This document shows positions 1 through 21,134 of a stretch of 64,000 bases of DNA, piece by piece. A program made the translations under genes and the position numbers. Positions within the stretch are counted from its first letter, which is position 1. Every line of letters starts with the position of its first letter. Under the pieces are notes generated by a model. It ran no database searches and was not told the DNA's origin. It was given only the letters and a program-made list of their open reading frames with translations. The stretch spans positions 124,001 through 188,000 of the forward strand of contig QPMI01000047.1 in the NCBI GenBank assembly GCA_004431415.1. Direction: 5' to 3'. The stretch is from Cyanophora paradoxa CCMP329 (lineage: Eukaryota; Plantae; Glaucophyta).

Positions 1-1124
1 TTATCCTTTTTCAGCCAGTAAACAATCGAACCGAATGTGACTCGCTTCCCTTCCACCATTTTCTTGCCTTTGCAAAGGCTCATGAACTTCTCATGACAGT
101 CATCATATTCATATTTTTCGCTTTTCTCCGAGAACTTATGAAATAGCTCTACTTGTTGCTTGCGAGGGATATTGTTGTCTTCGCAAGTATTGATTATAGC
201 AATACCTACGTCGATCCATGTCTTATATTCATTAGCTCGCTCGCCACTGAGGCTCATAATGACTTCTTGCAACAGTTCAAACGAAACCTTATTATCTTTG
301 AGATCCTCCAACACCTCCTCCTTCTTCTTCACAGGTTCTTTACAGGGCTTGTCCTTAACAGACTTGGGCGCCACCGTTTGCTTAGGTTCCTCAGGCTTTG
401 TAGCTTCCTTTGGTTTATCGACCGCAAAGGCTGACATGGTGTCTACTTCCACCCACTTAGTGGGGCGATCGAAACATTGCACCAGGAAAAAACCATCGTG
501 CATGCCTTCTTTCTCGCAATCAATAAACTTAGTGAACACCACATTCTTATCGACATCGTGCTTTGATTTGCTTTGAGCGTCCAAAGCTTCGCCTTTGCAG
601 CAACGGAGGCAGATCAGGTTTTGAGTTGTTCCATAAACGCCACTATCGAATTCGACATTTTTGATGAGACCCATCGCTTTAAAAAGCTTTGGAATGTCTT
701 CGTGGCGGCAGACCAGATCGGTAAATACGAAATGCCCGGAAATCTTGAACTTAGTGACATTCTCTTTGATTAAATGAACCCGGCGATGGCGAACAGCAAC
801 CGCAATTGTAGATCCCGACAGGGTTTGCAATTTCTTGCGCATTTCCCTGATGATCTCTTCGGCTTCCTTATAGTTGTCGGCTACATCAGGTTTCAGATCA
901 ACGAACTTGTCCAGATCCAGATAAACACGAGTCACTTGATCAGGTTGTATGCATTCCGCCCATGTAGGATAGGTCATATTGTCCCGTTTCTTTGAGTTAT
1001 TGATGCGCTCAATAATTTCATCATCGGTTAACTCAACCAAATTAGACGTATTGCGAGAACCAGTCAGACATTTCAGAAAGGTGCCCTTGACATTAGAGAA
1101 TGCGAATTTCGTGATAGCGTCCAT
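1..1124 (-). CDS. AEP primase/PrimPol + PriCT-2 domain, probably the N-terminal part of a D5-like primase-helicase (runs off the window edge)
   Basis: Own translation from ATG 1124: MDAITKFAFSNVKG...TRVYLDLDK (motif I DxD)...KISGHFVF (motif II SxH)...FDSGVYGTTQNL (motif III), Lys/Pro linker, then ERANEYKTWIDVGIAIIN...LFHKFSEKSEKY...VTFGSIVYWLKKD (PriCT-2). No stop before base 1, so absent from the ORF track. Confidence 0.85.
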   Translation of the reverse strand, partial: MDAITKFAFSNVKGTFLKCLTGSRNTSNLVELTDDEIIERINNSKKRDNMTYPTWAECIQPDQVTRVYLDLDKFVDLKPDVADNYKEAEEIIREMRKKLQTLSGSTIAVAVRHRRVHLIKENVTKFKISGHFVFTDLVCRHEDIPKLFKAMGLIKNVEFDSGVYGTTQNLICLRCCKGEALDAQSKSKHDVDKNVVFTKFIDCEKEGMHDGFFLVQCFDRPTKWVEVDTMSAFAVDKPKEATKPEEPKQTVAPKSVKDKPCKEPVKKKEEVLEDLKDNKVSFELLQEVIMSLSGERANEYKTWIDVGIAIINTCEDNNIPRKQQVELFHKFSEKSEKYEYDDCHEKFMSLCKGKKMVEGKRVTFGSIVYWLKKD

Positions 1125-3000: not shown

Positions 3001-3023
3001 TTATCATTATGCGAGAAATTTAT

Positions 3024-3935
3024 TCAAAATTTACCCAATTTCTTTGCAAATTTTGGGCGGCGCTTTTCTTGGTATGCCAGCAATAGATTGGGGTCTTTAA
3101 GTAGGTCGGCTTCGATTATTCTTTTGGTGGATCGCTTTAAGGTGGCGACGTTTCCACTCACAGGTTTCGTTATATCGGTGGTTTGGGGTTGGTCGCCATT
3201 TACCGCGCCCGACGTCGGTTTTACCGACTGTTTACCAGCGGTCTTTATGTCGTCCGCCGCTTTTTTAAAGAAGCGCTTGAATTTATATTCGTCAGGCACC
3301 GGATCCGCTTTGCCCACAGAGAATTCCAGGCTGTATTTCGCATTGTTTACCACGATCACCTGATAGCTGTGACTGTATTCGGTCATCACCTTCTCGAACC
3401 AGCGCTTTTCGTATGGATTAAACTCGTCCTCAGCGCTCTCCATCTCCTTTCTATTGGGCAATGAGAACAGGAATATATATTCGGCGTTTACTCTGAGTGT
3501 CGGCGAGATCTTCGTAAGTTTCTGTGACAAAATCCACACGGACACAAACAGGTGTCTTCCAGCACAAAATAGCTGATTTAGTATAGGCTCACCCTTTCCC
3601 GCCATTGATAAACTCGGATTATCCACGAAATCGTCCAGCACAATTAACAGGTTACCGACTTTCTCCTTTTTCTTGATCCTCTCCTTGCGTTTCTGTAATA
3701 TATTGTCAATCAGCTTATGGTCGAAATCCTCATACAGATACGATGTGACATTATCATATTGATGATTCCAGATCGTGGAGGCGAATATCATCACCGAATC
3801 TATCTTGTCCTCGTTGTGGTAAAGCAGGTATTTCAAAAACACTGACTTCCCAGTTGCAGTTTTGCCCACAAAAACGGCGCGATTCGGAAATTCCAGGCTT
3901 CCCGGGTCAAACTCACTCAGATCTTGTATATCCAT
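3024..3935 (-). CDS. A32-like (FtsK/HerA superfamily) DNA packaging ATPase
   Basis: Walker A AVFVGKTATGKS, Walker B LLIVLDD, GRH arginine motif, WILSQ, PTLRVNAEY; likely start MDIQD at 3935. Confidence 0.92.
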   Translation of the reverse strand: MDIQDLSEFDPGSLEFPNRAVFVGKTATGKSVFLKYLLYHNEDKIDSVMIFASTIWNHQYDNVTSYLYEDFDHKLIDNILQKRKERIKKKEKVGNLLIVLDDFVDNPSLSMAGKGEPILNQLFCAGRHLFVSVWILSQKLTKISPTLRVNAEYIFLFSLPNRKEMESAEDEFNPYEKRWFEKVMTEYSHSYQVIVVNNAKYSLEFSVGKADPVPDEYKFKRFFKKAADDIKTAGKQSVKPTSGAVNGDQPQTTDITKPVSGNVATLKRSTKRIIEADLLKDPNLLLAYQEKRRPKFAKKLGKF

Positions 3936-3984: not shown

Positions 3985-4706
3985 TTACTCAACATCATTG
4001 AGGATCGCTTTATCACCGAGAATTCCTTTGGCTTTTGAGTTGTAGAAAAGTGCAGCCTCCTCCTTTGTGTTGCACACTTTTCTCCACCGCTGTTTCTTAT
4101 ATGAAAAGCATCCTTCCCATTTTCCAGTCGCTGTTTCAGTTACACCACGAAATCCACTTGTATTCAGTGAGTAAAGAGGAGGTTTTGGTTTAATTTCAGG
4201 GTTTACCTCGTTCAAAACAGCAAGATCTCCAAATAGCTCTTTTGCTTTTTGGTTGTAAGCGGCAGCAGCTTCTTCTTTTGTATCAAACGTTCCCAAATTG
4301 TATGGGACACCACTTTTTGAATATTTGCCCTGAACCGACCGGTTCTTTTCTCTTGGAAAACACCTTTGAAACCAGTTTTGTTTCGTTTTCTCATACCTGT
4401 ATTAAATACGCTGTCTTGCGGTGTTAAGAATCTAAGATTACAGCGACGATTATCGAGTTTGTCTCTACTGATATGATCAACAAAGTGCCCTTGTTGATGT
4501 CCGAAAATCCATTTGTGCATGTCGATGTTTTTCTTTACACCAGCAATGTAACCCCATGCATATCCCCGTTGGTTATGGTAATACCACTTGCTTATTTTCA
4601 TGACATGATCATAATCGGCTTCATCTATAAGCGCATACTTGCCCTCGCCATGCTTTCCACACAAAGCGATTCGCCTGATCCCTTCCATTTGTTCGAGATA
4701 CGCCAT
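3985..4706 (-). CDS. HNH endonuclease fused to two AP2 DNA-binding domains (one frameshift near 4315)
   Basis: MHKWIF...VDHISRDKLDNRRCNLR (HNH_3); KTGFKGV..RFRANIQK/SGVPYNLGTFDTKEEAAAAYNQKAKELFG; second AP2 TSGFRGV..KW..NTKEEAALFYNSKA. One extra A in the A5 run fuses the two track ORFs. Confidence 0.9.
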
Positions 4707-4780: not shown

Positions 4781-6229
4781 TCATGCCGTCACGCGAGACA
4801 ATCCATTGGCATTCATCACAAGAATATTGTGGCAATAAGCCGAGATCTGAACACCGACCTTTGTCCAGGTGGCGAGGGGCGTGCCATTTGGTGTGAGCAG
4901 CAGGAAACTTGAAGCTGATTGAGTTAGATCGACGTAGCCAGTCGCCTTCTCACCTTTGAGCGCCGCTTTACCATCGAGAGCAAAGCAGAAGCCAGTGTAA
5001 ATGGGGCGCTTGTTGCTATCGATCCAGTTGGTCATCTTGAATTTATCGGCGAGCTCCATAGCAGCGGATTGCAGCGGGACACCAGTGTTGGAATATAGAT
5101 AATTGTTGTTGTTTAGGACTTGCATAACGACATTATCATCGTAGGCAAGAGTGCGGACAGTAGAGTGCCCTCCGAAATTGTTGCCGAGTGCATTTTCGTC
5201 GCGAACCTTGACAACGAGTGCGTAAACAAGTCCCGAAATTTGAGATAGTGACAGGCGGAGACCGGAGCCGAGAGCTTGACCGGTATAATCCGCAAACTGA
5301 ATATCAGTGTATGGGATGGCGATGCCAGAGGTCTTAACACGAGTAATGATTTCGCCCATCGTTTCCTCATCGATGTTAACAGCATCCATAATAAGACGAG
5401 GGGTCGTCATTTCCAGATTTGCAAGAGCAGGTGTAGGTGTGAGAGCCGCACTATCGAAAATCGCAGTGGCATTAGGGTGAGCTAAGGTCTTAATATTTCC
5501 GAAAGCAGCCGCAACAGCAAGCGTCGTCTCGCCATCAGTAGAATTGGCAGCGGTAATAGCAGCAGTGTTATTCTGAGCGTAAACGCCAGGAACCGCCGCA
5601 GTTTCGAGAAGCGCAGGGGTTTGGAAGTGCACCTCGACCGCGATTTCGGATGGGAGCGCACCGATGGGCACACCAGCATCGAGGAAGCTCGGAATTCGCA
5701 TGGTAAAAATGCCACCGGCTTGGTTGCCGCCCTCTACCTTAGGTCCGAGATGCAGCCCATGCTGCCGCTTCTTTTGGTCGAATTCAGCCGGAGTGTTAGC
5801 CAGGAAAGCGTAATCTACCAGTCGCTCAGCCGGAATAATTTGCTCATACGACCCGTATTTAATGCTGACTCGCTGAACAAACGAGCCAGGAAGCCCGCGG
5901 ACGAATCCAGTGTTGAATAGATCAGCCGAGCAGTCAGCAGAGGTCTTGGCGATGGCAGTCAGCGCCTTCGCCGATGGAATGGTAACTTGGAGGCTAATAC
6001 CATTGCACCAATTGTAGCGAGGGAGGTAGAAGACCACACGAGTGGTAGCACCAGTAGAGGAGAACAGATTGCCGGGATCCGCAATTGGAAGCACCTCCAC
6101 ACGAGAAGGCTTGAATTGTTTGTCCACACCCACGATAAATCCGCGATCCAAAAGCATGCTCTTGTAGTCCTCCGGGGTTTCGAGGACGGATTTGAGCGTG
6201 AGGCGGCTAAGCGAGGTCGTGGGATCCAT
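4781..6229 (-). CDS. Probable major capsid protein (double jelly-roll, PLV type)
   Basis: 482 aa, beta-rich, soluble; position between ATPase and penton-like gene; RVVFYLPR, FVQRVSIKYG, VKTSGIAIPYTD and terminal AYCHNILVM resemble PLV MCP layouts. No diagnostic motif; needs HMM/structure confirmation. Confidence 0.72.
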   Translation of the reverse strand: MDPTTSLSRLTLKSVLETPEDYKSMLLDRGFIVGVDKQFKPSRVEVLPIADPGNLFSSTGATTRVVFYLPRYNWCNGISLQVTIPSAKALTAIAKTSADCSADLFNTGFVRGLPGSFVQRVSIKYGSYEQIIPAERLVDYAFLANTPAEFDQKKRQHGLHLGPKVEGGNQAGGIFTMRIPSFLDAGVPIGALPSEIAVEVHFQTPALLETAAVPGVYAQNNTAAITAANSTDGETTLAVAAAFGNIKTLAHPNATAIFDSAALTPTPALANLEMTTPRLIMDAVNIDEETMGEIITRVKTSGIAIPYTDIQFADYTGQALGSGLRLSLSQISGLVYALVVKVRDENALGNNFGGHSTVRTLAYDDNVVMQVLNNNNYLYSNTGVPLQSAAMELADKFKMTNWIDSNKRPIYTGFCFALDGKAALKGEKATGYVDLTQSASSFLLLTPNGTPLATWTKVGVQISAYCHNILVMNANGLSRVTA

Positions 6230-6262
6230 ATTTCGTTTTTATCTTCCGCTGAGAAATTTATT

Positions 6263-7549
6263 TTAGAAGAACGGATTATTTTTTACAGCCACCCCGCTCA
6301 ACGCATTCGTTAAATTGCCGCAATGCGGGTAGTCCTCATATAGCATTTTCGCGAATCCCTTATTAACAATGCGCTGTAAATCGTCGTCGGGCTCATCCAC
6401 TCCCATAGTGAGTTCCAAAATGAATGTGTGCTCGCAGCTTCCGAGGAAATATCTATAACCGCTCTCTGTCAGAATTTGAACGGTTAAACTATCAAAGGAA
6501 AGGCGGGTGTTAAAGTATTTCGTGAAAGCATCCGCCCCATAATTAATTAGCTCAGCATCCGCATAGGCTGTGCCTTTCGAAATCGGGATCTTAGCGAGGA
6601 ATCCATTAGTAGCCTCGGTGCATGTCGTAAAAAGCGAGCAGTCCGGCTCTGTGATCTTTAAAACTATTGCATTATCCGGTGTATAATCAGGGGCAGTGCC
6701 TCCGGCTATGCCTAAGACCAGAGCCGTCGAATTATAATTGCGGAATGCATCACCAGCTGAGTAAACGACACCACTCCCAGCAAAGGCTGTGTAGCCCGAT
6801 CCGTTGTATTGATCTATCATTATATTCTCTCTGATCGATGTAAACCCGAGAAGAGTCATCGTGCGATAGGCGAGCACCTTTCTTTCATTCGCAGTAGACG
6901 CAGTGGCATTACTCGGACCATATTTCGTGAAAGCTATGTAGACATAATCACTCGAATAAAAGCATATGGCATTTAATGTGCTCTCAAAACGACATCTCAC
7001 CACCGGGTAAAAGGTTCCCCCTGTCGATGCGTAGCTTGGATTAATTTTTGTATCGATCATATCCTTGATGTAGTTGCCAGTTCCATTTTTCGTTAAGATG
7101 TTATCGATTGCAGTTGCAAGGTCGGTTCCAGTCGAGTATGTGCCAGGAGGGATCGTAATTGCTACGTCCCTGTATCGGGTATATCTTCTGAAAGTGTTAA
7201 GGTAATCAGGCGGTATATAGTTGCCTTGGTCGCCGAAATCTATCGCTTTGTATGCTTCGTATATTGCAGTCGCTTGTGTTTCTCTTATTTGCTCAGTGGC
7301 ACCATTGAGCTGTCCACTCGAAAATCGGTAAGGAAATGATATGAAAATTGTATTAGCATCATCGGCTTTCGTCTCCCCGATTTCAGTATAGAATTGAGGG
7401 CTTGGAACCGTGGGAATCGTGTTGGAAAATTCGATCTGTCGCACAGCGATGCTCTTCACATTGTGGTATTGCTTTGGAAGGGTCACCTTATAGGAATGAG
7501 CCGAGCCCTCTGATCGATCACGGCTACTGATGCTGAGATACTCGCGCAT
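6263..7549 (-). CDS. Minor capsid (penton-like single jelly-roll) protein 1 with large insertion
   Basis: N-term YLSISSRDR..SYKVTLPKQYHNVKSIAVRQIEFSNT; ITIPPGTYS; C-term FLAKIPI..FDSLTVQILTESG..EHTFILEL, the usual PLV/NCLDV penton pattern. Confidence 0.8.
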   Translation of the reverse strand: MREYLSISSRDRSEGSAHSYKVTLPKQYHNVKSIAVRQIEFSNTIPTVPSPQFYTEIGETKADDANTIFISFPYRFSSGQLNGATEQIRETQATAIYEAYKAIDFGDQGNYIPPDYLNTFRRYTRYRDVAITIPPGTYSTGTDLATAIDNILTKNGTGNYIKDMIDTKINPSYASTGGTFYPVVRCRFESTLNAICFYSSDYVYIAFTKYGPSNATASTANERKVLAYRTMTLLGFTSIRENIMIDQYNGSGYTAFAGSGVVYSAGDAFRNYNSTALVLGIAGGTAPDYTPDNAIVLKITEPDCSLFTTCTEATNGFLAKIPISKGTAYADAELINYGADAFTKYFNTRLSFDSLTVQILTESGYRYFLGSCEHTFILELTMGVDEPDDDLQRIVNKGFAKMLYEDYPHCGNLTNALSGVAVKNNPFF

Positions 7550-7576
7550 TTTATTCTTTATTAATAGGAAATAAAA

Positions 7577-8549
7577 ATGATTCGGAAGCCAGTTAACGAT
7601 TTCTATAATGGCAAGTTTACGAGGTCAATGTTAATATCGATTCTATTGAGCGCAGTGCAGGGCACCCGGGAGAATATACAGTAAAGCTTTCTCAGCGACT
7701 TCTGAACGTAAAAGGGTGCGCATTGCGAGCGCCGAGCTCCCAAACACGATTTATGCTGTCACCGATAATTCCAGAGGCGTGACCATACAGGGAATGACGA
7801 ACAGCATCACCTTTTCCCCTTTCCCTGATATTGGGAACTACACCCCCGCGATTTGGGGATATGGTAATAAGAACTTAGGCTACTCGGGCAGCTTTGTCGA
7901 TGTAAACCCTCTCACAAGCGAAAGCGTCACAGTCTACTACAAGTGGCTCTATAATCCAGCGACTATGAAAATTACGTTTTATTCGAGCATTCCCCTCGCA
8001 CTGAGCTGTGCACATGACGACTTTGCAAGGTTCCATGGAATGATCAAAGGGGATATGTATCAAACAATTCCAGTTGGTGAGGGTTCAGAGCATCTCACGG
8101 TAGACTATTTACCCCTCACACCCAGCAATCCAAAATACTCATTTCTACAAGCCTATGAGGGCAAAACAAAATACCCCGCCGGAATATCTGTGCTTCCATT
8201 CCCTCTCGAACATGTAGTGACCTTCCCGAATGCGATTAATCTAAATCCGACCCCCTATGTTTACCTACAAATTAAAGAGTTTACGCCCTTTTACGACAGG
8301 TATATGGTGGCAGCAAAGACAGATGAGGGCGGAAATGCAAACCTCGCTAAGATCCCACTAACCAGCCCCTTGGGATCGTTTGTTTACTACCTGACATTCC
8401 GCAGAATCGATACTGTGGAGTTCTTTAATTCCCACGATCAGGCTTATGATATAGACACGCTCACAATTAAATGGCTCGACGCCTACAATAATGTAGTCAA
8501 CTTTAATGGCGTTAATCACAGCTTTATATTAGAGGTGCTATCGGGTTAA
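7577..8549 (+). CDS. Minor capsid (penton-like) protein 2; two 1-nt frameshifts near the 5' end
   Basis: Restoring one A near 7613 and one near 7712 gives MIRKP..VNIDSIERSAGHPGEYTVKLSQRLLNVKRVRIASAELPNT; C-term PYVYLQI..LAKIPL..IDTLTIKWLDAYNNVVNFNGVNHSFILEV. Confidence 0.8.
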
Positions 8550-8567
8550 AATAATCTTATATTACAA

Positions 8568-11500
8568 ATGAGTATCACGAATCTCCCCTTTATCACTCGG
8601 GAAACCTTGTATTTGGATGACGGTTTCGAGCTCAGCAGTAACATTACCGCTTCCAATGTGACCATATCTTCGAACCTTGTGGTAAAAGACTTTCTATTAA
8701 ATCAGAGCAACCTTGAATATATTGATATCACCAGCAATCTCCCTTTTACCTATGGCACTGATAACTCAGCCCTCGTTATCTATCATGGGGGCTCGCCTGT
8801 TGCATTCTTTGGCAGCAATTTCCCCACTGTGCGAACCTTTCAGCACGAAATCAATAAAGCCCGCCCCATCCCACTGACAGCTGTCGTAGAATGGGATCCT
8901 GTTAAATATTCGCAGAGCATCACAAGCAATATTACACTCACTCGACCACATTTAATTGAGGTCATGGGGGTCGACCTTGTAAAGGAGTTTTATAGTGAGC
9001 GATTCACAAGAAACGAGCGAGATGTAGCCCAGGATCTCGAAATCTCGGGTTTATCAATTGCTACCGCAGCAAACACGGCAGGGCTCGCTGTTTTAACAGG
9101 TGCAATCACCATCACTGATGCGATCATGTATTTATCCCGCGATTTGGTGCCTTTGCTCGATCATCAATTTAATCTCGGGCAATCTAACACTGATGCTGTT
9201 AAGAAATGGCTGAATGTGTATGCCTATGATGGGTGGTTTGATGACTTGCACACGACTAACCTTTATAGCACGACCTCAAAAACAAGTAACATAATCTTGC
9301 CTTTCAATCACTCAGTCCGACCCAGTGATTTACCCACTGATGAGAGAGCTCTGATCAGCTATAACGACTTTAACAGCAATCTTTCCCGCTCAGTTTCGCG
9401 GACTGAGACCTACACTGTCGAGGGATACCCTCAGCAGCTCGCAAATGGGGTCTATGTCGCTTATGTAGGCAAACCTACATATACATTCACTTGGGATCAG
9501 TTGGGTGTCACAGGTTTGGAGAGTATACCCACTGTTTCATTGGTGGATCACACAACTTATTATAATCCTATCACTAACAATAATGAATCTAATAAAGCGT
9601 TTATCCAAAATGTCACCTCCACAGGGTTTCAGGTCTCGTTTGTCATTAACGAGACATACAATTTACTTATCATCCGAAACAACTCATTGAGTTCCGAAGC
9701 TACTATTAGTTTCACTCTTAACATCAATTATATCACCCCTGAATTCGATAGCAAACCCAGAGTGAAGGTTTACCGAGATTTACAAGGTAGCAATATCGTG
9801 CCCTTCTCACAGAATTTCGATCTTGGGGCGAATTCTTTGAGGTGGAACACAGTTTATACTTTGAATGCAAACACCTGTAATATTGTGGTCGCAGGGTCAT
9901 CGGCTACTATTGGAGATCTGACCGCCCCTTTCAAAAAGGAGTATCTTAAAGAGCTGTATATTACAAAGTCTGATTTACCAGATGCTATTTCGTTGGTGCT
10001 CTCCCCGACTCCCAGTATATCCTATCACAATGTGAAAGACACCAGTAATGTAGTGCAGAGGGAAGCAAAGTATTCCAGGCATCCGAGATATCAGCAACAA
10101 CATATAGATACCTTGCAGCGGTTCCAGCGAATTTTAATTTCACATTTGAGACACCATTTGTTTCCCCTCCTACTATTGAAATAACTGACACGAATTTGTA
10201 TGTGATCAATAATGGGTCGACCACCTCTATTAACAATGCACCAGCCGGCTACTCCCATTTGTTGCAACTAACATAACAACCACCGGCTTCACACTTGTCG
10301 GAAATGCAACAGTGACATATGCTCTTACAGCATATCCTGTTGGTTGTATTTTGCGAAATTTAATCTTTCAGCGATCCCACCTGTGTCCCTTTCTCTCCCT
10401 TTACTATCAATTGGAAGGCAACAGGAACAATACCTCGTTTGACTCCGAAGATCGATTAAAAATAAGGTATCCTCTCGATGTGACCGACCTCCATACTACG
10501 AGAATAAATGGCAGAATTTCGTATTTAATGGAACCAATGCGACTCTGATCGATAATCGAGTTACAAATAATTACTTTTTCGATTCTCGATATATTAATAC
10601 TTGCAACATTGTCATACAGAACACGTTTGAGAATCGAAGTAAGACCTTAACAGTCACCTTGCCCACTCACTCGAATGTCTCAGATGGATTTACTATTACC
10701 TGTTCAATCGCAATTACACCTCTTATATTCCATATCCTCTGAGACTGTGACATGAGCTATCCCAAAGTCACCCTAACATCGACCAATGCTCACTTCTTTG
10801 GATCCACGGACTTTATGACCTTCTTTGCTTTCACATCCTCTACTGATGGGCTCTTAGTTTATTACACTTTCAGATATGATGCTGTTTGGACTCAGCTTGA
10901 CAGCCACCCAAATACAGATGTAATCGAAGTGGGCGATAAGAAATATATAAAAACCGCTTCCCCATGGGTGTGCACTGTCCGGCTCGATGACAGATACACT
11001 CCCAACCTAAATAACATTGGAATGCACTCGACATGCAATATTTATGTGCAAGGTGCAATTTCGGCTACCAAATATTTCGAGGGAGGGAACTGTGATGCAG
11101 GGCATCGATTGCTATCGCGAAATGGATTCTTTGAGTCATTCAGTGGGACAGCTCTACCGCCCTTTATCAGGGACACAGTGTATGATACCACATGCAATAT
11201 TTGGGTGTGTCGATCTGTGAGCAATCCGCCTGTGACAAAGGAATTATATAAATATCTGTCAGATACCTATGGTGCAATCTCAGGATCCTCCACAGGAAAT
11301 CCAGCGACGGCTCCCATCGTGTTTGCAAATGCATACACAGCGCCGACATCATTAGCAGGGTCGACAGAGCCGCCACCTAACGATCCCAATCCGAACCAGC
11401 CTAACCCAGATCCCGATTCAAAAGATCCCCCTACAACTGATCCAGATCCAAACACGACACCTAATAATCCCAGTAATCCTACTAATCCAGTTGGATCACC

Positions 11501-11882
11501 AGGAATGGATCCAGGGACGTTAGTGCTTCTCATTCTCTTGCCGATTCTCGGTGTTGGAGGACTTGTGCTTGCATACAAATTCCGAGCTTTATGTTTTGCA
11601 TGCTGGGATAGGGTCATTGCAGGTGCAGGTAATAAATACTCAACACCAGAGCTTAATGTGACCCAAACAGCCGAAGGAGATGTGGGGTTAGAGGTGAGGT
11701 CAGCCGAGGGGCATGGTCTTAGTGTTGTGAGAACTGATCAACCACCAGCAAGCAGGGCAGCACCCAAAAAATCACGAGCAGAACGAATGGCTGAATCAAT
11801 AATAAAAGACAATGCAGACTTTATGGCGGAAATGGCACAGCGAGAGGGCAGAACATATGAGCTTCTCCCAATGCGACCTTAA
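8568..11882 (+). CDS. Large fibre/receptor-binding-like protein in several frameshifted segments; C-terminal Pro/Asn/Asp linker and hydrophobic helix
   Basis: Tail-fibre-like repeats (LVPLLDHQFNLG..KWLNVY; IVPFSQNFDLGANSLRWNTVY), TSNI/TCNI motifs, H-type-lectin-like segments (PTVSL..QNVTSTGF; FETPFVSPPTI..TNITTTGF), then PNDPNPNQPNPDPD and LVLLILLPILGVGGLVLAY. Could be two genes. Confidence 0.6.
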
Positions 11883-11911
11883 TTTTTGTAGAATGCCTTA
11901 ATAGAGAAATA

Positions 11912-13374
11912 ATGACGGAACCCATAGTAGAAACGACAATAAAGAATGCTGTATTGGATAATAAATTTTATATAACCCACGCCAATATACCCAGTGAATC
12001 CAATGACCTAATTGTTGATCTAAAAGGTTATGTGATGGGAGCTATGGCTTCTAACCTATGGAATGACCTTTTCGGTTACGAGTTTGGTCACATCTATGAC
12101 ATTGCAAATGGGATCGGCTATGTGGATGCAATGGCAGGCACAGCCTTTCGAAATCTAAATTGCAACTGTGTGGGTGGGTGGATGTTTCAGATCTGTTCCA
12201 ATGTCGATCCCACTATTGATCCCGCCACGATTACCTTTGATTGCAATCTATTTGCCCCCAAAACCATTTTCTCCATCACTTGCAATCTCGTTAATTCGGA
12301 TGTGCCCATAGTAGCACCTGTAATTGGTGCATCAAATATGTATATCCAAAGAAATCCGGTCGTGCATACAGGCGCCGAATTTATATTAGGCGACAACACC
12401 CCAATTAGTCGACTCGAATTGCCCACGAATTTCACCTTTAATCTCGTGGATGAGTTCCCTAACAGTCAAAGTCTCATGTATTTCACCTCTGAAAATCGCC
12501 TTTCGGGTGCATTCTCACCCATTGAGCTGTCTATACCGAAACAAAAGGTGAGCTATAAAGAGCTTACAGATGTGCCGGCGGGATTTAGTGGGAAGTGGAG
12601 TGATATCATTCAGAAGCCGACTTGGAGTAGTGTAGCATACACAGGAAATTACTATGATTTAGTAGGAACTCCCGATTTCACAAGCTATATACCTCGTTGG
12701 ATTGATCAAGGTGTAATTATATCAGAATCTACACTTCCTTTCAATGGGACATGGATAGGTTATTTACTAAGCCGAATTTGCATGCTGTTGCCACAAGTGG
12801 TGACTACAACGATTTAACTAACACCCCTATTGCACCGACCTTGCATGCTGTGGCTACAAGTGGAGACTACAATGATCTCATTAATACACCGAACCTACAT
12901 GCTGTGGCTACAAGCGGGAACTATGACGATTTAATTAACACACCTACTTCGCCACCTACTCACAATCACAGCATAGAGTTGCTCACGAATTTCGGTAATT
13001 ATGTGAATCCAAATGCATATGTGCAACAAGGGACAGCGAATGTAGTTTTGGAAAATAGAATATACAATGCAGGAGAGACCTTTCAGTTATCGGGAACGGT
13101 CGTATTCTCTACCCCATTTTATAGTGATGCAGTGATTACTACCTCTATCGAGAATAGCTATAACTCTGTAAATTGGGAAATGACCAACTGTGTATATATC
13201 GGACCTGAGTATGTTAATAATGAGAGAGTAGGACTAAAAACTAAGTTTACATGGATCGTTAGATTCACAGCTTTCGCATCGACTAATTTCACAAATGTCA
13301 CAGCAGCAAATCGCACCCTTAAACTCCATTGGATTGCTGTCGGACCTCTCCAAAACAATAATATTCTCACTTAA
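11912..13374 (+). CDS. Fibre protein with phage-type (L)HAVATSGDYNDL repeats and C-terminal lectin/gp53-like domain; frameshift near 12750
   Basis: FSGKWSDI, VAYTGNYYDL, three LHAVATSGxYxDLxNTP repeats; GTVVFSTPF...LHWIAVG terminus. Confidence 0.7.
12779..12945 (+). repeat. Three coding repeats LHAVATSG(D/N)Y(N/D)DLxNTP
   Basis: catgctgt.gc.acaag.gg recurs at about 12781, 12844 and 12898. Confidence 0.85.
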
Positions 13375-13395
13375 TAAGTAAAGAACAATCAAAAG

Positions 13396-14364
13396 ATGTC
13401 GACTGTATTCACACCTGTGTTTTCTTTGAGTGCAAGTGCTGTCCATAATGTTCAACACACAGTCTATGATTTATCTCCGAGCCACCCTTCGACTGAGACA
13501 GCGAAAACCGATTCTTTTAATGACCAAAGCATACTCAGAGTCAAAGAACTCAGAGCTGACAAGATTGATGGACTCGTTAAAGCTACTCAAATGATCGTAT
13601 CGAATCGACCCGCAATATCTTCGGGGCTGGTCACCAAAGAAAATCTATATGAGGGTCAACAGGATTCCAAAACGGCTTTTAATCCGGCTGATAGGAATTC
13701 GGCGGCATTTCAAGTTTACAGTGGTGGGGCATGGATTGGGACTGGCTTAGGGGTTAATGGGAGTGCAACAATTACTGGAAGCCTTACAGCTGGATCATTT
13801 GGGACAGTTAAAACGACAACTATTGATTCTGGGGCAAATACAGAGTTGGTGATTAAGCGCAATGGGGCAACTGTTGCTTCGACATATTCAACAGGTGTGT
13901 CTCCAAATGATTCGTATGGTTTAACAATAAATGGGAGTAAATGCTATCTTGCTCTTCCAAACCACCCCCGTTTCTGTGTTGCACTAACAGCTGCAATCGC
14001 TACAAACGGAACCATTGGTAACTGGAATTATACATTTCTAAATCATGGAAACCATCTAGCAACATCAACAGGCATCTTCACAGCACCTGTTTCAGGTCAT
14101 TATAAGTTGATCTTTTCAGGAACAACCACAGCAAATAATAGTGATACACAGGTTATCCTGCGACAAAGTAACCTTACAACTCAACTTATTGCATATTCTC
14201 CTGCACCTGGATCACCACTGAGTAGATCTATTGGGTTTAATTTCATTGTTAACATGGTAGCTGGAGATACTGTGAAGCTAGATCTTTATGGTGGTGGATT
14301 GCTTGCATCAGGAACAGGGGCGATGTATACTGTGTGGTCTGGTGAATTAATTTCTGCAACATAG
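13396..14364 (+). CDS. C1q/TNF-like head-domain fibre protein
   Basis: PRFCV..FLNHGNHLATSTGIFTAPVSGHYKLIF..VNMVAGDTVKL..TVWSGELI matches the C1q G.F.AP..G.Y and L..GD.V..FSG.LI pattern. Confidence 0.82.
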   Translation: MSTVFTPVFSLSASAVHNVQHTVYDLSPSHPSTETAKTDSFNDQSILRVKELRADKIDGLVKATQMIVSNRPAISSGLVTKENLYEGQQDSKTAFNPADRNSAAFQVYSGGAWIGTGLGVNGSATITGSLTAGSFGTVKTTTIDSGANTELVIKRNGATVASTYSTGVSPNDSYGLTINGSKCYLALPNHPRFCVALTAAIATNGTIGNWNYTFLNHGNHLATSTGIFTAPVSGHYKLIFSGTTTANNSDTQVILRQSNLTTQLIAYSPAPGSPLSRSIGFNFIVNMVAGDTVKLDLYGGGLLASGTGAMYTVWSGELISAT

Positions 14365-14373
14365 AATAAAAGA

Positions 14374-14637
14374 ATGTCGAACATCTACCAAGTAGTTCTA
14401 ACTGACACTGAGAAACTGGGAATGGAATACTGTGCCTACTCTGTTCAGGATTGGATCGATAATATGGCTCATAATAGGGCGAGAATCGCGATTGATGAGA
14501 TTGTGGACAAAGAAGTTAAATCGTGTATTGCCGCTGGAATTCCGATTCCACTCACAAAGGAAGCGATTGTAGAGCAAGCGTTTGCAAGGGGGACTGTTCG
14601 AAAGGCAAGCGAAATTCCTGTGAGTGCTCCTATGTAA
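14374..14637 (+). CDS. Small protein resembling those following C1q tail-fibre genes in aquatic bacteriophages
   Basis: VLTDTEKLGMEY..SVQDWIDNMAHNRARIAIDEIV; starts 9 nt after the C1q gene; resemblance recalled, not searched. Confidence 0.6.
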   Translation: MSNIYQVVLTDTEKLGMEYCAYSVQDWIDNMAHNRARIAIDEIVDKEVKSCIAAGIPIPLTKEAIVEQAFARGTVRKASEIPVSAPM

Positions 14638-14820
14638 AGAACTCGAATTCGAAGAATGAGAGATGGGTTAATTGTTATTTTTCATAGATCATGCATAAGA
14701 AAGGCATGTATCTTGCATAGTGGGCGGGGCGCACTTATCCCCTTCGTATCCACTTCGTATCCACTTCATATCCACTTTGTGTTCACTAAATTATATCGCA
14801 CTGATTCAGTTTGCATTTTG

Positions 14821-15838
14821 CCCCCACCCTACACCCCACCCTATACTACAATCTCGTTATTTCTATACATATTTACTATCTAATTTAATAGAGTTTATAC
14901 ATTGAAATAAGTGAGGTGTATCGATAAGTAATACAGGGTGGGGAGGGTGGGGTTGGGTGGGGTCTTTTTTGCCCAAAAATATTTGACCCCCAAAAATTTA
15001 AGGGATTCAAAAAAATGCCCCACCTCACCCCACTTACCCCACCCTATCGAAGTCCGCACGATATCATAGTAGGCTACATCGGGATTGCGATCATATCACA
15101 GTGTATACAGTGAGGGTGGTGCCCCACTTTCTCACCCCACCCTATCGATTCGCGATTCAGGGATCGCGAAATATACAGCACATGATACTTGTTTTCTTAG
15201 TGATCGCGCCGTTCTAATACGATCTGAATATATCATATCTCGTCGGTATCACGTCGGTTCAATATCGTAATTATTAAATGGTTGGCTGATACCACTTTCA
15301 CACCCCACCCTCACACCCACCCGGTATTAATTTAACATACATAATCTCTATACTTTATACATTAATTACATTGAAATCAATCATAAATATAATAAAAGAT
15401 ACAGGGTGGGGTAAGTGGGGTTGGGTGGGGTCTTTTTTGACCAAGAATTTTGAGGGGGAATTATTTTAGGGAATTCAAAAAAATGCCCCACCTCACCCCA
15501 CCCGCCCACCCTATCGAAGTTATCGAAGTCCGATAAGTATCAAACCGGAAGTAAAAATAACACATCATGATTTTATGTGTGCCATCTTAGATTGGACTAC
15601 CATACCGATACCACTCACACCCCACCCTCACACCCCACCCAGTATTAATTTAACATACTCAATCATACATATTTATATTTAAATTACATTGAAATCAATC
15701 ATAGATAAAGAGAATAATACAGGGTGGGTAAGTGGGTTGGGTGGGGTCTTTTTTGACCAAGAATTTTTGGGAGTGAAACATTTTAGGGAATTCAAAAAAA
15801 TGCCCCACCTCACCCCACCCGCCCCACCCTATCGAAGC
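14821..15838. repeat. Three ~230-bp subterminal units of opposed GGGTGGGG/CCCCACCC tracts around AT-rich spacers
   Basis: Units at about 14821-15053, 15288-15520 and 15608-15838, each ending caaaaaaatgccccacctcaccccac..cccaccctatcgaag. Confidence 0.9.
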
Positions 15839-16092
15839 TACGTAGGTGATACACATGACTATATGAGGCGCGTCCCAAGCAGCACATTGTAGTTGTTTTA
15901 GATACACATCGCGCATCGTAAACACATATCGGCTATATCGCGATTACATATTATATATACATATTTTACAAAGATTCCACGATACTTATATTATTTTTAT
16001 TGATTCATTTACGAACTACCGATAGAATACATATCACATATCGATATACACTATGATAAAAATGCTAATATCTTTATATAACTTATAGTAAC

Positions 16093-16163
16093 ACACATAT
16101 AAAAACAAATATTATTATCCTGAGCGGAACGCGAGGGATAATAATATTTGTTTTTATATGTGT
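16093..16163. repeat. Terminal hairpin: perfect 28-bp inverted repeat with 15-nt spacer
   Basis: 16093-16120 acacatataaaaacaaatattattatcc is the exact reverse complement of 16136-16163. Confidence 0.95.
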
Positions 16164-17173
16164 ACCTTGGCGCGCGCATTCGATGATGTTTAATTACATA
16201 AGACCCGATAAAGATCTAGAACGCCTCCCTGACGGATTTCGAAATCGCAGCATTCACGATTGCGGTCATTCAGCGGCATTACAATTGGGTATATATGCGT
16301 GTATTTAGGGAAATCCGTTCTTTGATGCAGGCGGCTAATGATCGTTTCCACTTTTGCAGGATTTTGCAGCGAGCCAAGCGAATTTGACCAACCAGCAAGA
16401 GTTCATCATCGCTCTCACAAATTGTGCCACGCAAGTCGCAGCAGAGTTTCCGTTGGGGCGAAGCAGAAAGGGCTCTGCGGGCTTCCGGCACGGCGCCTCC
16501 TCGAAACCAGCAAGCGAGAATATGGTTAAGTTGATTATGAGAATGGCGCACATGGGAGGCTTGTGCGCGCCGACTATGATCAAGCCTCGAGGCGCTGATG
16601 TGTACACACCAATGACGCAATCGAAGTACGTACTGTATTCAATAGTGACAGACTTGCCTCCACTGGCTAGGCACTGGGCCTTCGCGTCGTCTTCACCGAT
16701 GTTGCTCTGATGCCACAGAGCGGTTGATGCCTTGCAGTCGTAGGAAGCGTAGCAGGACGAGTCTAACACAATGTGCAGATTAGGACTTCGGAATGTGTTA
16801 AAATGTGCGATCAAACGCAAACGCACTTCCTCCCATGATGTCGATGGATGCAGGCCCTGAGGGGTTGTTCGAAACCTGAAGAAGCGCACACCTCACGCGT
16901 TACTCGCGGCCATAAGATGCGTGCACCTCGGGGCCTATACGTGTACGTACGGGCACGCGGGCGGCGGCTTCGCGTCTTTGTGCTGCGGAGTTGTGCTACT
17001 AACTTGCGCAGGGCCGCGACCGGCAGTCAGCGGCAGATCGATCTGGATTCTGGACTGAGCCTCGGCCCGGCGGAGATCGAAGATGCGAGGGCCGGTAAAC
17101 AGAAGGAGGGTGGATTATTGGGCTCAGTGCTCCTAGTAGGGTCGGCAAGCCTGAGTTGGGCTCAGTGCTCCTA

Positions 17174-17415
17174 CCGTGTAACACTTAAATATGACGGCAT
17201 CTGTGATGTCGTTTATAAAACCTGGACTCCCGTGCGTGACATATGACGCTCCCAAATTATGTCGCTATACAATTCGAGGTTTGTATGGGGCGCGGTAATT
17301 TTGTATGGCGCCCAGGAATTATGACGCTCCCAAATTATGTCGTTATAGCAAAATGTCGGCGACATAATTTGGGGATGACATAATAAAGTGCGCGGCATAC
17401 ATAAGTGTTATACGG
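17174..17415. mobile_element. MITE, TA target duplication, Tc1/mariner-pogo-like TIR
   Basis: TA|ccgtgtaacactta ... taagtgttatacgg|TA (13/14 match); internal repeats tatgacgctcccaaattatgtcg. Confidence 0.75.
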
Positions 17416-17540
17416 TAGTAAAGCCCGGCGGCCAGCCAGCCGCTGAGCTCGACTCTGCTCGAGCGGCGGCGAGTCCAGCCAGGCGGACCGTCCGGGCCCC
17501 GGGACCGTCGGACCCGGATCTCCCGGAGTACTAGTCCGCG

Positions 17541-18554
17541 ATGCCCGGTTATCAAAGCATCATCCGCACGGCATGCGCCGTCGCAAAGGAATCTGGCTAC
17601 CCCGGGGGCGGGCCGTGGGCGGACTTCATCTGTATCGACCAGAAAGCTTCCCCCGAGGTGAAAATGAAGCAGGTCATCGCAGGCTGGGACGGGTACGTGA
17701 GTTTGAGCCAGATCAATGTCGACGTCTGCGTCGATTTAGTATATATATTATGTCTGACTGCGATTCTGACCGGTACCGAGTGCAGGTACTCCGATTGTTT
17801 GAGCCTGCTTATGTATATGTGCACCCCCGAGAGAGCGAAAAGGCTGCGGCATTACCTGTACGGGACGGGCATGGCCGAGCTCAACATGCGGCTTGCTTCT
17901 GCAGCGCAGGAGCAAGAAGAATACAAGCAAAGGCGCACATCCTTCGAGGTCATGGGGCAGTTTGGCGACGAGCAGCATTGGATGCAAGCGGATAGATTCG
18001 AGAAGGCCGCCAGGAGGGCATTCGTGTTTGAGTTCGTACCGAAGCGAGTGTGGATCATTTCAGAACTTGCGTTAATGTGCATCAATGACAAGATCGTTCA
18101 GAACCTTGGCGCGCGCATTCGATGATGTTTAATTACATAAGACCCGATAAAGATCTAGAACGCCTCCCTGACGGATTTCGAAATCGCAGCATTCACGATT
18201 GCGGTCATTCAGCGGCATTACAATTGGGTATATATGCGTGTATTTAGGGAAATCCGTTCTTTGATGCAGGCGGCTAATGATCGTTTCCACTTTTGCAGGA
18301 TTTTGCAGCGAGCCAAGCGAATTTGACCAACCAGCAAGAGTTCATCATCGCTCTCACAAATTGTGCCACGCAAGTCGCAGCAGAGTTTCCGTTGGGGCGA
18401 AGCAGAAAGGGCTCTGCGGGCTTCCGGCACGGCGCCTCCTCGAAACCAGCAAGCGAGAATATGGTTAAGTTGATTATGAGAATGGCGCACATGGGAGGCT
18501 TGTGCGCGCCGACTATGATCAAGCCTCGAGGCGCCGATGTGTACACACCAATGA
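17541..18554 (+). pseudogene. 3'-truncated duplicate of the HET-domain-like gene
   Basis: PWADFICIDQK..EVKMKQV and KRVWIISEL match the HET (PF06985) W.D..CI.Q..E...Q and R.W..QE motifs; cut at the repeat junction before the transmembrane exon. Confidence 0.55.
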
Positions 18555-19112
18555 CGCAATCGAAGTACGTACTGTATTCAATAGTGACAGACTTGCCTCC
18601 ACTGGCTAGGCACTGGGCCTTCACGTCGTCTTCACCGATGTTGCTCTGATGCCACAGAGCGGTTGATGCCTTGCAGTCGTAGGAAGCGTAGCAGGACGAG
18701 TCTAACACAATGTGCAGATTAGGACTTCGGAATGTGTTAAAATGTGCGATCAAACGCAAACGCACTTCCTCCCATGATGTCGATGGATGCAGGCCCTGAG
18801 GGGTTGTTCGAAACCTGAAGAAGCGCACACCTCACGCGTTACTCGCGGCCATAAGATGCGTGCACCTCGGGGCCTATACGTGTACGTACGGGCACGCGGG
18901 CGGCGGCTTCGCGTCTTTGTGCTGCGGAGTTGTGCTACTAACTTGCGCAGGGCCGCGACCGGCAGTCAGCGGCAGATCGATCTGGATTCTGGACTGAGCC
19001 TCGGCCCGGCGGAGATCGAAGATGCGAGGGCCGGTAAACAGAAGGAGGGTGGATTATTGGGCTCAGTGCTCCTAGTAGGGTCGGCAAGCCTGAGTTGGGC
19101 TCAGTGCTCCTA

Positions 19113-19354
19113 CCGTGTAACACTTAAATATGACGGCATCTGTGATGTCGTTTATAAAACCTGGACTCCCGTGCGTGACATATGACGCTCCCAAATTATG
19201 TCGCTATACAATTCGAGGTTTGTATGGGGCGCGGTAATTTTGTATGGCGCCCAGGAATTATGACGCTCCCAAATTATGTCGTTATAGCAAAATGTCGGCG
19301 ACATAATTTGGGGATGACATAATAAAGTGCGCGGCATACATAAGTGTTATACGG
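19113..19354. mobile_element. MITE, second copy carried by the tandem duplication
   Basis: Same termini and internal repeats as 17174-17415 at +1939. Confidence 0.75.
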
Positions 19355-19478
19355 TAGTAAAGCCCGGCGGCCAGCCAGCCGCTGAGCTCGACTCTGCTCG
19401 AGCGGCGGCGAGTCCAGCCAGGCGGACCGTCCGGGCCCGGGACCGTCGGACCCGGATCTCCCGGAGTACTAGTCCGCG

Positions 19479-21134
19479 ATGCCCGGTTATCAAAGCATCA
19501 TCCGCACGGCATGCGCCGTCGCAAAGGAATCTGGCTACCCCGGGGCGGGCCGTGGGCGGACTTCATCTGTATCGACCAGAAAGCTTCCCCGAGGTGAAAA
19601 TGAAGCAGGTCATCGCAGGCTGGGACGGGTACGTGAGTTTGAGCCAGATCAATGTCGACGTCTGCGTCGATTTAGTATATATATTATGTCTGACTGCGAT
19701 TCTGACCGGTACCGAGTGCAGGTACTCCGATTGTTTGAGCCTGCTTATGTATATGTGCACCCCGAGAGAGCGAAAAGGCTGCGGCATTACCTGTACGGGA
19801 CGGGCATGGCCGAGCTCAACATGCGGCTTGCTTCTGCAGCGCAGGAGCAAGAAGAATACAAGCAAAGGCGCACATCCTTCGAGGTCATGGGGCAGTTTGG
19901 CGACGAGCAGCATTGGATGCAAGCGGATAGATTCGAGAAGGCCGCCAGGAGGGCATTCGTGTTTGAGTTCGTACCGAAGCGAGTGTGGATCATTTCAGAA
20001 CTTGCGTTAATGTGCATCAATGACAAGATCGTTCAGAACCTTGGCGCGCGCATTCGATGATGTTTAATTACATAAGACCCGATAAAGATCTAGAACGCCT
20101 CCCTGACGGATTTCGAAATCGCAGCATTCACGATTGCGGTCATTCAGCGGCATTACAATTGGGTATATATGCGTGTATTTAGGGAAATCCGTTCTTTGAT
20201 GCAGGCGGCTAATGATCGTTTCCACTTTTGCAGGATTTTGCAGCGAGCCAAGCGAATTTGACCAACCAGCAAGAGTTCATCATCGCTCTCACAAATTGTG
20301 CCACGCAAGTCGCAGCAGAGTTTCCGTTGGGGCGAAGCAGAAAGGGCTCTGCGGGCTTCCGGCACGGCGCCTCCTCGAAACCAGCAAGCGAGAATATGGT
20401 TAAGTTGATTATGAGAATGGCGCACATGGGAGGCTTGTGCGCGCCGACTATGATCAAGCCTCGAGGCGCCGATGTGTACACACCAATGAACGAGTTCGCC
20501 TCTACTTTGGAGATCGACCGGTGCCATACATTTATTATGCATGACTGAGCATGCAGTCCTGCTACGCTATTCATGATCACACAATATTAATTGCATTGCA
20601 AATCAGATTCCGCATTGTTCATCTCGCGCAATCGGGGCGCTGGATTGAACCCGAGGAGGCAGCAGTGAGAAAGGCAGAGAAGGAAGGAGCACCCTACACA
20701 AAGGACCTGGTATTGTAAGCTGCATCGTTCAATGCTTTCTTTCTGATGCTCGATCTGAATTTATGCATTTATCGGATCCGTTCTTTTGTGCCCGCAGAGA
20801 TCAGTCGGAGAAGTACCATACATTTGCGGCATATTTCTGGACCTTTTTCACGATTCTTCCGTTCCTTCTGATCGCCGGCGCCCTGTCCGGCTTCATTGTT
20901 TTCGGCATCGTCTACCTTCTTTTCTCCTGCCTCCTCTGCCCGTTCCGTGTCTGCTGCTGCGGAGGAAACCAAATCCGAGACACGGAGGAGAATGACGGGA
21001 CGGGAAGCGGCATCAGTTTCACGACCGCCGATGTAGGGGCTGCCATTGCGAAGTTTCGCCATATGTATGTCAATGTACATGTACAGTTGCAGGCGCCTGC
21101 ATCTATCAGTACTATAGCTAGTGGCGACATGTAG
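19479..21134 (+). CDS. Spliced HET-domain-like protein with C-terminal hydrophobic/Cys-rich segment
   Basis: Same HET-like motifs, continuing into unique sequence with FWTFFTILPFLLIAGALSGFIVFGIVYLLFSCLLCPFRVCCCGG; apparent frameshifts are all C/G homopolymer contractions relative to the upstream copy. Exon chain not fully resolved. Confidence 0.55.

What the first reader, a model, noticed from the sequence alone, without database searches (positions are those of the whole stretch)
16093..16163. Element ends exactly on a 71-nt fold-back hairpin with a GNA-triloop cap
Seen: a perfect 28-bp stem whose last base is the last viral base. The 15-nt spacer T-GA-GCG-GAA-CGC-GA-G can extend the stem with a T.G pair, tandem GA/GA mismatches, a GCG/CGC stem and a GAA triloop. 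Known: GNA triloops and sheared tandem G.A pairs stabilise single-stranded DNA hairpins. Inference: the end works as ssDNA, for self-priming replication or as a recombinase/HUH/telomere-resolution site. That differs from the simple protein-primed ends of canonical Polintons and fits a primase-helicase replicon.
Basis: partly seen in the sequence, partly recalled or inferred. Interest (0 to 1): 0.8.

Follow-up and report, generated by a model that had tools for sequence, protein, structure and literature searches.

The report
Capped hairpin tip of endogenous virus
A virus integrated in many copies in a eukaryote's genome ends exactly on a 71-base DNA hairpin with a lopsided cap; the hairpin likely folds back to restart copying of the virus's ends, a kind of end recently reported, but untested, for related viruses.

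Summary
Confirmed. 16093-16163 is a perfect 28-bp stem around a 15-nt spacer (DNA fold -27.8 kcal/mol, z -14.4). Short-read contigs of 4 public runs show it is real and multicopy (roughly 18-30x): 2 of 4 end exactly at 16163, a second flank appears in 2, and no variant letter is listed in the hairpin. Contig breaks in 4 of 4 runs imply a 6-bp target duplication, pointing to a retroviral-type integrase, not a tyrosine recombinase or HUH enzyme. The element is Polinton-like (capsid-like protein, A32 ATPase) with an AEP-PriCT-2 primase; helicase, integrase and left end lie outside the window or were not seen. The GAA/GA-GA cap can form only on the strand whose 3' end is the terminus, but has the weaker G-C closing pair. 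Three of 4 runs show one spacer orientation, against AAV/poxvirus-type flip-flop; the fourth is unresolved. Best reading (0.5): a fold-back 3' primer replacing a terminal protein. Terminal palindromes with this proposed role are in a 2026 Halocafeteria preprint, and this scan noted them on 4 other DNAs. New here: the asymmetric capped spacer, which makes the mechanism testable.

The parts
16093..16120 (+). Inner arm of terminal hairpin, 28 nt, GC 0.18
16121..16135 (+). Asymmetric spacer, GC 0.67: T.G pair, tandem GA/GA in pyrimidine-GA-purine context on both sides, 3-bp stem, GAA loop closed by G-C
   Evidence: sequence; motif context PMC10085684
16136..16163 (+). Outer arm; last base is the element's 3' end on the + strand
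   Evidence: contigs of X3 and X20 end at 16163; second flank in X1, X20
16164..16169 (+). Right copy of an inferred 6-bp target-site duplication (ACCTTG)
   Evidence: unit contigs end 6 bases past the equivalent site (18108) in 4 of 4 runs and start at 16164 or 24 letters earlier; left junction letters not seen
14638..16163 (.). Non-coding terminal region, probable terminal inverted repeat (inner border not found)
   Evidence: no ORF of 80 aa or more; contig depth 1.2-2.0 times that of internal genes in the 3 runs where it could be compared
14821..15832 (.). Three imperfect ~110-nt palindromes in ~320-470-bp repeats, with 9 G-quadruplex-consensus tracts (3 on +, 6 on -); candidate origin iterons
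   Evidence: all 9 such tracts of 1-16163 lie here
3..1124 (-). AEP-PriCT-2 primase-polymerase, cut by the window start
   Evidence: Pfam PriCT_2 E 2.3e-13; Atlas AEP_C962R + PriCT_2 clusters, score 0.97
3024..3935 (-). A32-type packaging ATPase
   Evidence: Pfam Pox_A32 E 2.1e-10
4212..4706 (-). HNH endonuclease-like ORF
   Evidence: Pfam HNH_3 E 4.8e-6
4781..6229 (-). [quoted passage not shown]
   Evidence: Atlas Capsid_N/Capsid_NCLDV clusters, score 0.98, recognition below the tool's strong mark; low-confidence model (pLDDT 40) hits mostly capsid proteins; 2 relatives at 42% and 39%
13396..14364 (+). C1q-domain (fibre-tip-like) gene, variable among copies
   Evidence: Pfam C1q E 7.5e-8; 6 alternative joints
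16164..20489 (.). Insertion target: 1.94-kb tandem unit, 2.2 copies, entered in mid-unit
   Evidence: the site lies inside a 194-codon ORF of the intact unit, 7 codons before its stop

Best explanation
The hairpin is the exact, conserved tip of a multicopy Polinton-like virus integrated in this genome, and it likely works as a fold-back 3' end that primes copying of the virus's ends in place of a terminal protein. Shown: the hairpin, its position at the last base, many copies, two different flanks, an AEP-PriCT-2 primase gene, and contig breaks that overlap by 6 bases at the target. Inferred: (1) the same hairpin sits at the left end; (2) a retroviral-type (DDE) integrase made the 6-bp duplication, so the integrating DNA is linear with a free 3'-OH at 16163; (3) lacking a protein-primed polymerase, such a linear genome must rebuild its ends another way: the 3' strand folds back, pairing 16163 with 16093, which leaves a 3'-OH pointing into the genome, held by the GAA/GA-GA cap that only this strand can form; (4) the closed end is reopened asymmetrically, for example by a nick at the 3' junction of the outer arm, where an integrase would cut, followed by gap filling at integration, which would keep one spacer orientation in integrated copies.
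For: End at 16163 in 2 of 4 runs and a second flank in 2 of 4. Hairpin contig depth about 18, 26, 28 and 30 times single-copy depth against 14-16 for internal genes in 3 runs, ratio 1.2, 1.65, 2.0, as two ends per element would give (rough, the tool warns depth is no copy number). 6-base overlap in 4 of 4 runs, with the 24-letter offset that 31-letter words predict. 6-bp duplications go with rve integrase, not tyrosine recombinase (PMC12220804 passages). AEP replicases usually pair with tyrosine recombinases and DDE enzymes with protein-primed PolB (bioRxiv 10.64898/2026.10.13.758929 section 11), so AEP plus DDE leaves an end-replication gap; the Halocafeteria preprint finds terminal palindromes preferentially with non-pPolB replicases and particular RVE integrases (section 7). 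Spacer fully closable in 514 of 2,000,000 shuffles (criteria set after seeing it). Geometry equals that of the AAV 3' priming hairpin (PMC11359079 passages).
Against: No priming or folded form was observed. Integrase, helicase, left end and absence of pPolB are unseen (window starts inside the primase gene; no genome held). Ordinary hairpin priming with terminal resolution gives flip and flop ends, yet X3, X8 and X20 read through 16120 unbroken, so an extra asymmetric step must be assumed; amplification through dimer junctions would also make flop ends (inference). The loop's G-C closing pair is the weaker one and not the GCGNAGC mini-hairpin. The cap being on the 3' strand is a 1-in-2 coincidence. 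No sequence variation, so no covariation support. An element that encodes a primase does not need self-priming to start synthesis.
Confidence: 0.5

Rival explanations
1. The hairpin is a recognition signal for the element's own AEP primase (like plasmid RSF1010 ssiA or the phage G4 origin): it extrudes or folds on displaced single strand and loads the primase, with the G/C-tract palindromes upstream as origin iterons; the 3'-OH is not itself extended.
For: AEP-PriCT-2 gene. GNA-type mini-hairpins occur at primase start sites of G4, ssiA and at N4 promoters (PMC13037366 passages). Needs no inversion of the spacer, so it fits one orientation in 3 of 4 runs. Repeated palindromes and 9 G4-consensus tracts confined to 14821-15832.
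Against: Does not explain why the stem ends on the very last base, nor how the tip itself is copied. Those signals have short stems and C-G-closed loops; here the stem is 28 bp and the loop G-C-closed.
Confidence: 0.2
2. The free virus has covalently closed hairpin ends like poxviruses, asfiviruses and chloroviruses, or AAV-type terminal resolution; the integrated palindrome is the opened telomere, and flip and flop forms exist in equal amounts.
For: AT-rich, incompletely paired hairpin ends are known in those viruses (PMC11814242, PMC12085832 passages). The X1 contig breaks at 16120, exactly where a flop form or a hairpin-primed dimer junction would branch.
Against: X3, X8 and X20 pass 16120 unbroken at high depth; a half-and-half mixture should break them (inference from graph assembly; a minority form could be dropped). 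X1's hairpin is split into more pieces overall (summed depth at 16096-16168 is 3.6 times its main contig, against 1.4-1.9 in the others), so its break may be read error or a flank starting with the two letters that mimic the inner side. No HUH or resolvase family among 16 ORFs scanned.
Confidence: 0.12
3. The palindrome arose once by fold-back repair of a founder's end and was copied to all daughters; it serves at most as integrase end, end protection or packaging mark, not in replication.
For: All copies look identical, as recent descent would give. The Halocafeteria authors offer accidental annealing as an alternative.
Against: The spacer is GC-rich (0.67) between AT-rich arms (0.18) and is fully closable by known single-strand motifs, unlike an arbitrary trapped stretch. 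Terminal palindromes recur in 5 subtypes in Halocafeteria and track replicase type.
Confidence: 0.12
4. It is an RNA hairpin marking transcript 3' ends (the giant-virus/virophage hairpin rule) or blocking read-through.
For: Virophages use the hairpin rule (PMC11814242 passages); AT-rich stem.
Against: 1.45 kb from the nearest ORF end; no other stem of 13 bp or more in the element, so its genes do not end this way; Rfam matches are far below cut-offs (8 matches, best 41 bits against 100).
Confidence: 0.04
5. Assembly or chimeric-read artefact.
For: Fold-back chimeras make such palindromes (general knowledge); one laid run may be the window's own source.
Against: Contigs of X3 and X20 (different studies, 2024 and 2019) carry all 71 letters with 0 differences at high depth; same end on a second flank.
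Confidence: 0.02

Closest known systems
Terminal palindromes of endogenous virophages (subtypes 1, 2, 5, 6) and PLV subtype 4 of Halocafeteria seosinensis (bioRxiv 10.64898/2026.07.28.741278; section 7 and passages read, supplements not seen)
   Same: Palindrome at the tip of the terminal repeat next to a target duplication; non-pPolB replicase; hairpin priming proposed, untested.
   Different: The example given there is a 52-nt palindrome; the passages read describe no asymmetric spacer, cap motif or orientation test. Here a 15-nt capped spacer marks strand and orientation, and one orientation dominates. RVE gene not seen here.
Canonical Polintons/Mavericks (pPolB + rve integrase)
   Same: Capsid, A32 ATPase, probable terminal repeats, 6-bp duplication.
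   Different: AEP-PriCT-2 primase found; ends are a fold-back palindrome. pPolB absence not shown. Usual AG...CT termini (recalled) do not match the GT end here.
AAV/parvovirus ITR, rolling-hairpin replication (PMC11359079 passages)
   Same: 3'-terminal hairpin whose free 3'-OH faces the genome.
   Different: No HUH Rep found in the window; simple stem, not T-shaped; no flip/flop mixture in 3 of 4 runs; double jelly-roll dsDNA virus.
Poxvirus, asfivirus and chlorovirus hairpin telomeres (PMC11814242, PMC12085832 passages)
   Same: AT-rich terminal hairpin with unpaired or non-standard bases beside tandem repeats.
   Different: Those ends are covalently closed and (recalled) flip/flop; this one is seen opened and integrated with a 6-bp duplication.
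GNA mini-hairpins at primase and polymerase start sites (phage G4 origin, RSF1010 ssiA, N4 promoters; PMC13037366 passages)
   Same: GNA loop on single-stranded DNA in a replicon with its own primase.
   Different: Loop closed by G-C rather than C-G; 28-bp stem; located at the extreme end.

Membership tests
Polinton-like virus (Polisuviricotina) | [quoted passage not shown] | tested here: met
   Atlas 0.98 to capsid clusters (below strong-recognition mark); Foldseek of a pLDDT-40 model gives mostly capsid proteins among named top hits. No Pfam hit; PLV versus virophage clade not determined.
Polinton-like virus (Polisuviricotina) | A32/FtsK packaging ATPase | tested here: met
   Pox_A32 E 2.1e-10
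Polinton-like virus (Polisuviricotina) | Minor capsid (penton) protein | not tested
   6263-7549 and 7794-8549 look penton-like by recalled motifs; no Pfam hit
Polinton-like virus (Polisuviricotina) | Terminal inverted repeats at both ends | tested here: inconclusive
   Left end outside window; depth ratio 1.2-2.0 in 3 runs
Polinton-like virus (Polisuviricotina) | Integrase gene (rve or tyrosine recombinase) | not testable with these tools
   None in 16 of 20 element ORFs scanned; left part unavailable
Canonical Polinton | Protein-primed PolB | tested here: inconclusive
   Not in the window; AEP-PriCT-2 found instead; left part unseen
Canonical Polinton | 6-bp target-site duplication | tested here: met
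   Indirect: 6-base overlap of contig breaks in 4 of 4 runs
Halocafeteria-type palindrome-ended virophages/PLVs | Palindrome within the terminal repeat, adjacent to the duplication | tested here: met
Halocafeteria-type palindrome-ended virophages/PLVs | Non-pPolB replication gene | tested here: met
   AEP-PriCT-2; a second replicase in the unseen part is not excluded
Halocafeteria-type palindrome-ended virophages/PLVs | Particular RVE integrase clades | not testable with these tools
   Gene not in window
Tyrosine-recombinase PLVs | No integrase-type short duplication | tested here: not met
   6-base overlap in 4 of 4 runs against PMC12220804
AAV-type rolling hairpin / pox-type telomere | Flip and flop end isomers | tested here: inconclusive
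   No break at 16120 in X3, X8, X20; break in X1; contigs drop rare forms. Equal mixture unlikely in 3 of 4.
AAV-type rolling hairpin / pox-type telomere | HUH nickase or resolvase gene | tested here: inconclusive
   None in 16 ORFs scanned; an HNH_3 ORF is present
AAV-type rolling hairpin / pox-type telomere | Single-stranded or covalently closed ends in virions | not testable with these tools
   Needs virion or episomal DNA
GCGNAGC mini-hairpin | GNA loop closed by C-G | tested here: not met
   Closing pair is G16126-C16130; PMC3201870, PMC13037366

The most novel reading that the evidence does not exclude
A terminal-protein-free, flip-flop-free way to run a linear integrating DNA virus: one 71-nt end serves both as self-primer for an AEP polymerase and, through its 28-bp stem, as the integrase end, the integrase's own 3' nick acting as the terminal resolvase, so that replication and integration are coupled and one strand-specific cap is kept at every end.
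Probability: 0.15. Interest if true: 0.75.

Novelty: new variant of a known kind. Interest (0 to 1): 0.45.

Why it matters
How Polinton-like viruses without a protein-primed polymerase copy their linear ends is open; the one preprint that reports terminal palindromes asks for tests. A perfect palindrome cannot show orientation; this one has an asymmetric spacer at roughly two to three dozen ends in one genome, so counting flip against flop in existing reads directly separates AAV/pox-type resolution from an asymmetric or primase-signal mechanism. It also adds a case of an AEP replicase with an integrase-type duplication, the rarer pairing.

Tried and rejected
Own genome: none held, so left end, integrase and other copies could not be read directly. 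Relatives with ends to compare: none confirmed in viral contigs with the capsid, ATPase or a 3-sequence capsid alignment (60 pattern hits, 0 confirmed), nor in metagenome contigs (190, 0 confirmed); protein searches found 0 and 2 relatives; no PDB sequence match for the primase. Hairpin core: 0 matches in viral contigs; the 15-nt spacer has 15 matches there, none with more than 2 paired arm bases next to it; 1 metagenome match is a bacterial-looking contig with a 4-bp arm, a chance match. No RNA holder listed: no evidence either way on expression. No strand-change joint listed in either lay; a flop or dimer junction would lay as a plain minus-strand match, so this says nothing. The junction contigs themselves were too short to be listed; 54 loose-end and 361 piece rows (265 and 2001) were not shown. 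Only 4 of 24 listed runs were laid, the same four twice. The shared ACC start of the two visible flanks is not taken as target preference: a flank that matches further is more likely to be displayed. Host genes: 1 weak zinc-knuckle hit in 12 long host ORFs; host lineage not determined. No earlier scan note on this genome or this sequence.

Full report
Observation. The arms 16093-16120 and 16136-16163 are perfectly complementary over 28 nt with 15 nt between. It is the longest of 10 perfect stems of 12 bp or more in the window, occurs once, and has a chance expectation near 1e-10.

The element. 1-14637 is AT-richer (GC 0.44) than the host (0.70) and gene-dense (20 ORFs of 80 aa or more). Of 16 of these scanned, Pfam names PriCT_2, Pox_A32, HNH_3 and C1q. 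The primase matches AEP_C962R + PriCT_2 clusters; it is cut by the window start, so no helicase is shown. 4781-6229 looks like a double jelly-roll capsid by language-model features and by a low-confidence fold; only 2 relatives were found. This is a Polinton-like virus by gene content; integrase and left end are outside the window and no genome is held. 14638-16092 has no long ORF and holds three imperfect palindromes with all 9 G-quadruplex-consensus tracts of the element.

Is 16163 the end? To the right lies a 1.94-kb tandem unit entered in mid-unit: intact copies at 18103 and 20038 have unit sequence where the hairpin stands at 16163. Twenty of 24 listed runs hold about 60% of the sampled words; four were laid twice. 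In X3 and X20 a high-depth contig covers the whole hairpin with 0 differences and stops at 16163; the flank contig starts at 16164 at about a tenth of the depth. X1 and X8 break earlier (16120, 16133). X1 and X20 show the same end joined to another GC-rich flank. No other letter or indel is listed in 15950-16170 in any of the 4 runs, so covariation cannot be tested. Using alternative fibre cassettes as single-copy depth, the hairpin is about 18, 26, 28 and 30-fold and internal genes 14-16-fold in 3 runs: roughly two ends per element, which suggests but does not show the hairpin at both ends; the tool warns that depth is no copy number. The runs share one organism label and may be one strain; one may be the window's source.

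How it integrated. The contig of the unit's end stops at 18108 in 4 of 4 runs although the laid stretch ran to 18112, six bases past the position equivalent to the junction, while the flank contig starts at 16164 (X3, X20) or 24 letters earlier (X1, X8), which is 30 minus 6 for 31-letter words. A branch out after ACCTTG and a branch in before it is what a 6-bp target duplication gives; a point variant would rejoin the unit and was not listed. The left junction letters were not seen, so this is inferred. Six-bp duplications mark rve integrase, not tyrosine recombinase (PMC12220804, passages).

The cap. Both GA steps sit in pyrimidine-GA-purine context, as in the sheared tandem pairs of the CGAG block (PMC10085684, passages), here with one T.G for C:G. 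A spacer closable by standard pairs, at most one G.T, tandem GA/GA and a central GNA arises in 514 of 2,000,000 shuffles, a rule set after seeing the sequence; 17 such 15-mers occur on the two strands of the window, 4 in the element. Only the strand whose 3' end is the terminus has it; the other has a TTC loop. Against: the spacer alone is ordinary by nearest-neighbour energy (26 of 200 shuffles), and G-C closure is the weaker form (PMC3201870, passages), not the GCGNAGC mini-hairpin (PMC13037366, passages).

Orientation. A flop isomer would branch the graph at 16120. X3, X8 and X20 pass that point; X1 breaks there. X1's hairpin is more fragmented throughout (summed depth 3.6 times its main contig against 1.4-1.9), and a flank that happens to mimic two inner bases would give the same break, so X1 is unresolved. 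Contigs drop rare forms; an equal mixture is unlikely in three runs (inference). AAV ends occur as flip and flop (PMC11359079, passages).

Mechanism. An integrase-type duplication needs a linear donor with a free 3'-OH at the last base. DDE enzymes usually go with protein-primed PolB, AEP replicases with tyrosine recombinases (bioRxiv 10.64898/2026.10.13.758929, section 11 and passages). An AEP plus DDE element has neither a terminal protein nor a circle, and a 3' fold-back would supply the primer. I commit to that at 0.5, with asymmetric reopening assumed to explain one orientation. Rivals: primase-loading signal 0.2, symmetric hairpin telomere 0.12, inherited by-product or mere end mark 0.12, RNA hairpin 0.04, artefact 0.02.

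What is known. The Halocafeteria preprint (bioRxiv 10.64898/2026.07.28.741278; section 7 and passages; supplements not seen and may hold spacer details) reports palindromes next to duplications in four virophage subtypes and one PLV subtype, with non-pPolB replicases and particular RVE integrases, and proposes hairpin priming. Word look-ups found no hairpin or palindrome in PMC12220804, PMC10120064 or bioRxiv 10.1101/2025.10.09.676808, no terminal hairpin in bioRxiv 10.1101/2022.07.28.501842 or PMC11071308, and only poxvirus or giant-virus hairpins in PMC11296320 and PMC12085832. Searches listed no paper on a capped, interrupted PLV end or an orientation test; the library lacks most subscription papers. 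PMC8567376 was seen as a listing only. Four earlier scan notes describe terminal palindromes of 44-214 nt on other DNAs (unchecked, not counted as evidence); I had found the preprint before reading them.

Verdict. Real and the true end; a new variant of a recently described kind; function untested; interest 0.45.

Noticed in passing
window 13790-14480: The C1q fibre-tip gene is a swappable cassette: 6 alternative joints between conserved borders, each at about 1-2-copy depth, in 3-4 of 4 runs, so sister copies carry different tip domains.
   Followed up: partly
window 14821-15832: Three imperfect ~110-nt palindromes with G-tract and C-tract arms; all 9 G-quadruplex-consensus tracts of the element lie here, on both strands.
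   Followed up: partly
window 17174-17415 (and 19113-19354): High-copy ~240-bp MITE-like insert with 14-bp terminal repeats (13 of 14 match) and TA on both sides, Tc1/mariner-like by recalled pattern; a contig skips 17174-17413 in 4 of 4 runs.
   Followed up: partly
window 16164-20489: 1.94-kb tandem unit, 99.7% identical copies, GC 0.54 in a GC 0.70 host; 2 of its ORFs had no Pfam hit. Nature unknown.
   Followed up: no
window 4781-6229: Capsid-like protein is nearly an orphan: 2 relatives among 1.84 billion representatives, the closer (42%) an uncharacterised EukProt protein labelled Cyanophora paradoxa.
   Followed up: partly
window 14645-14662: Two overlapping 15-mers just after the last ORF also close with a GAA loop and tandem GA/GA by the same rule as the spacer; may be chance.
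   Followed up: no
window 30814-30860, 37963-38014, 49691-49754: Shorter perfect stems (12-15 bp) in host DNA.
   Followed up: no
window 57000-64000: GC falls to about 0.53 again; no ORF of 250 aa or more.
   Followed up: no
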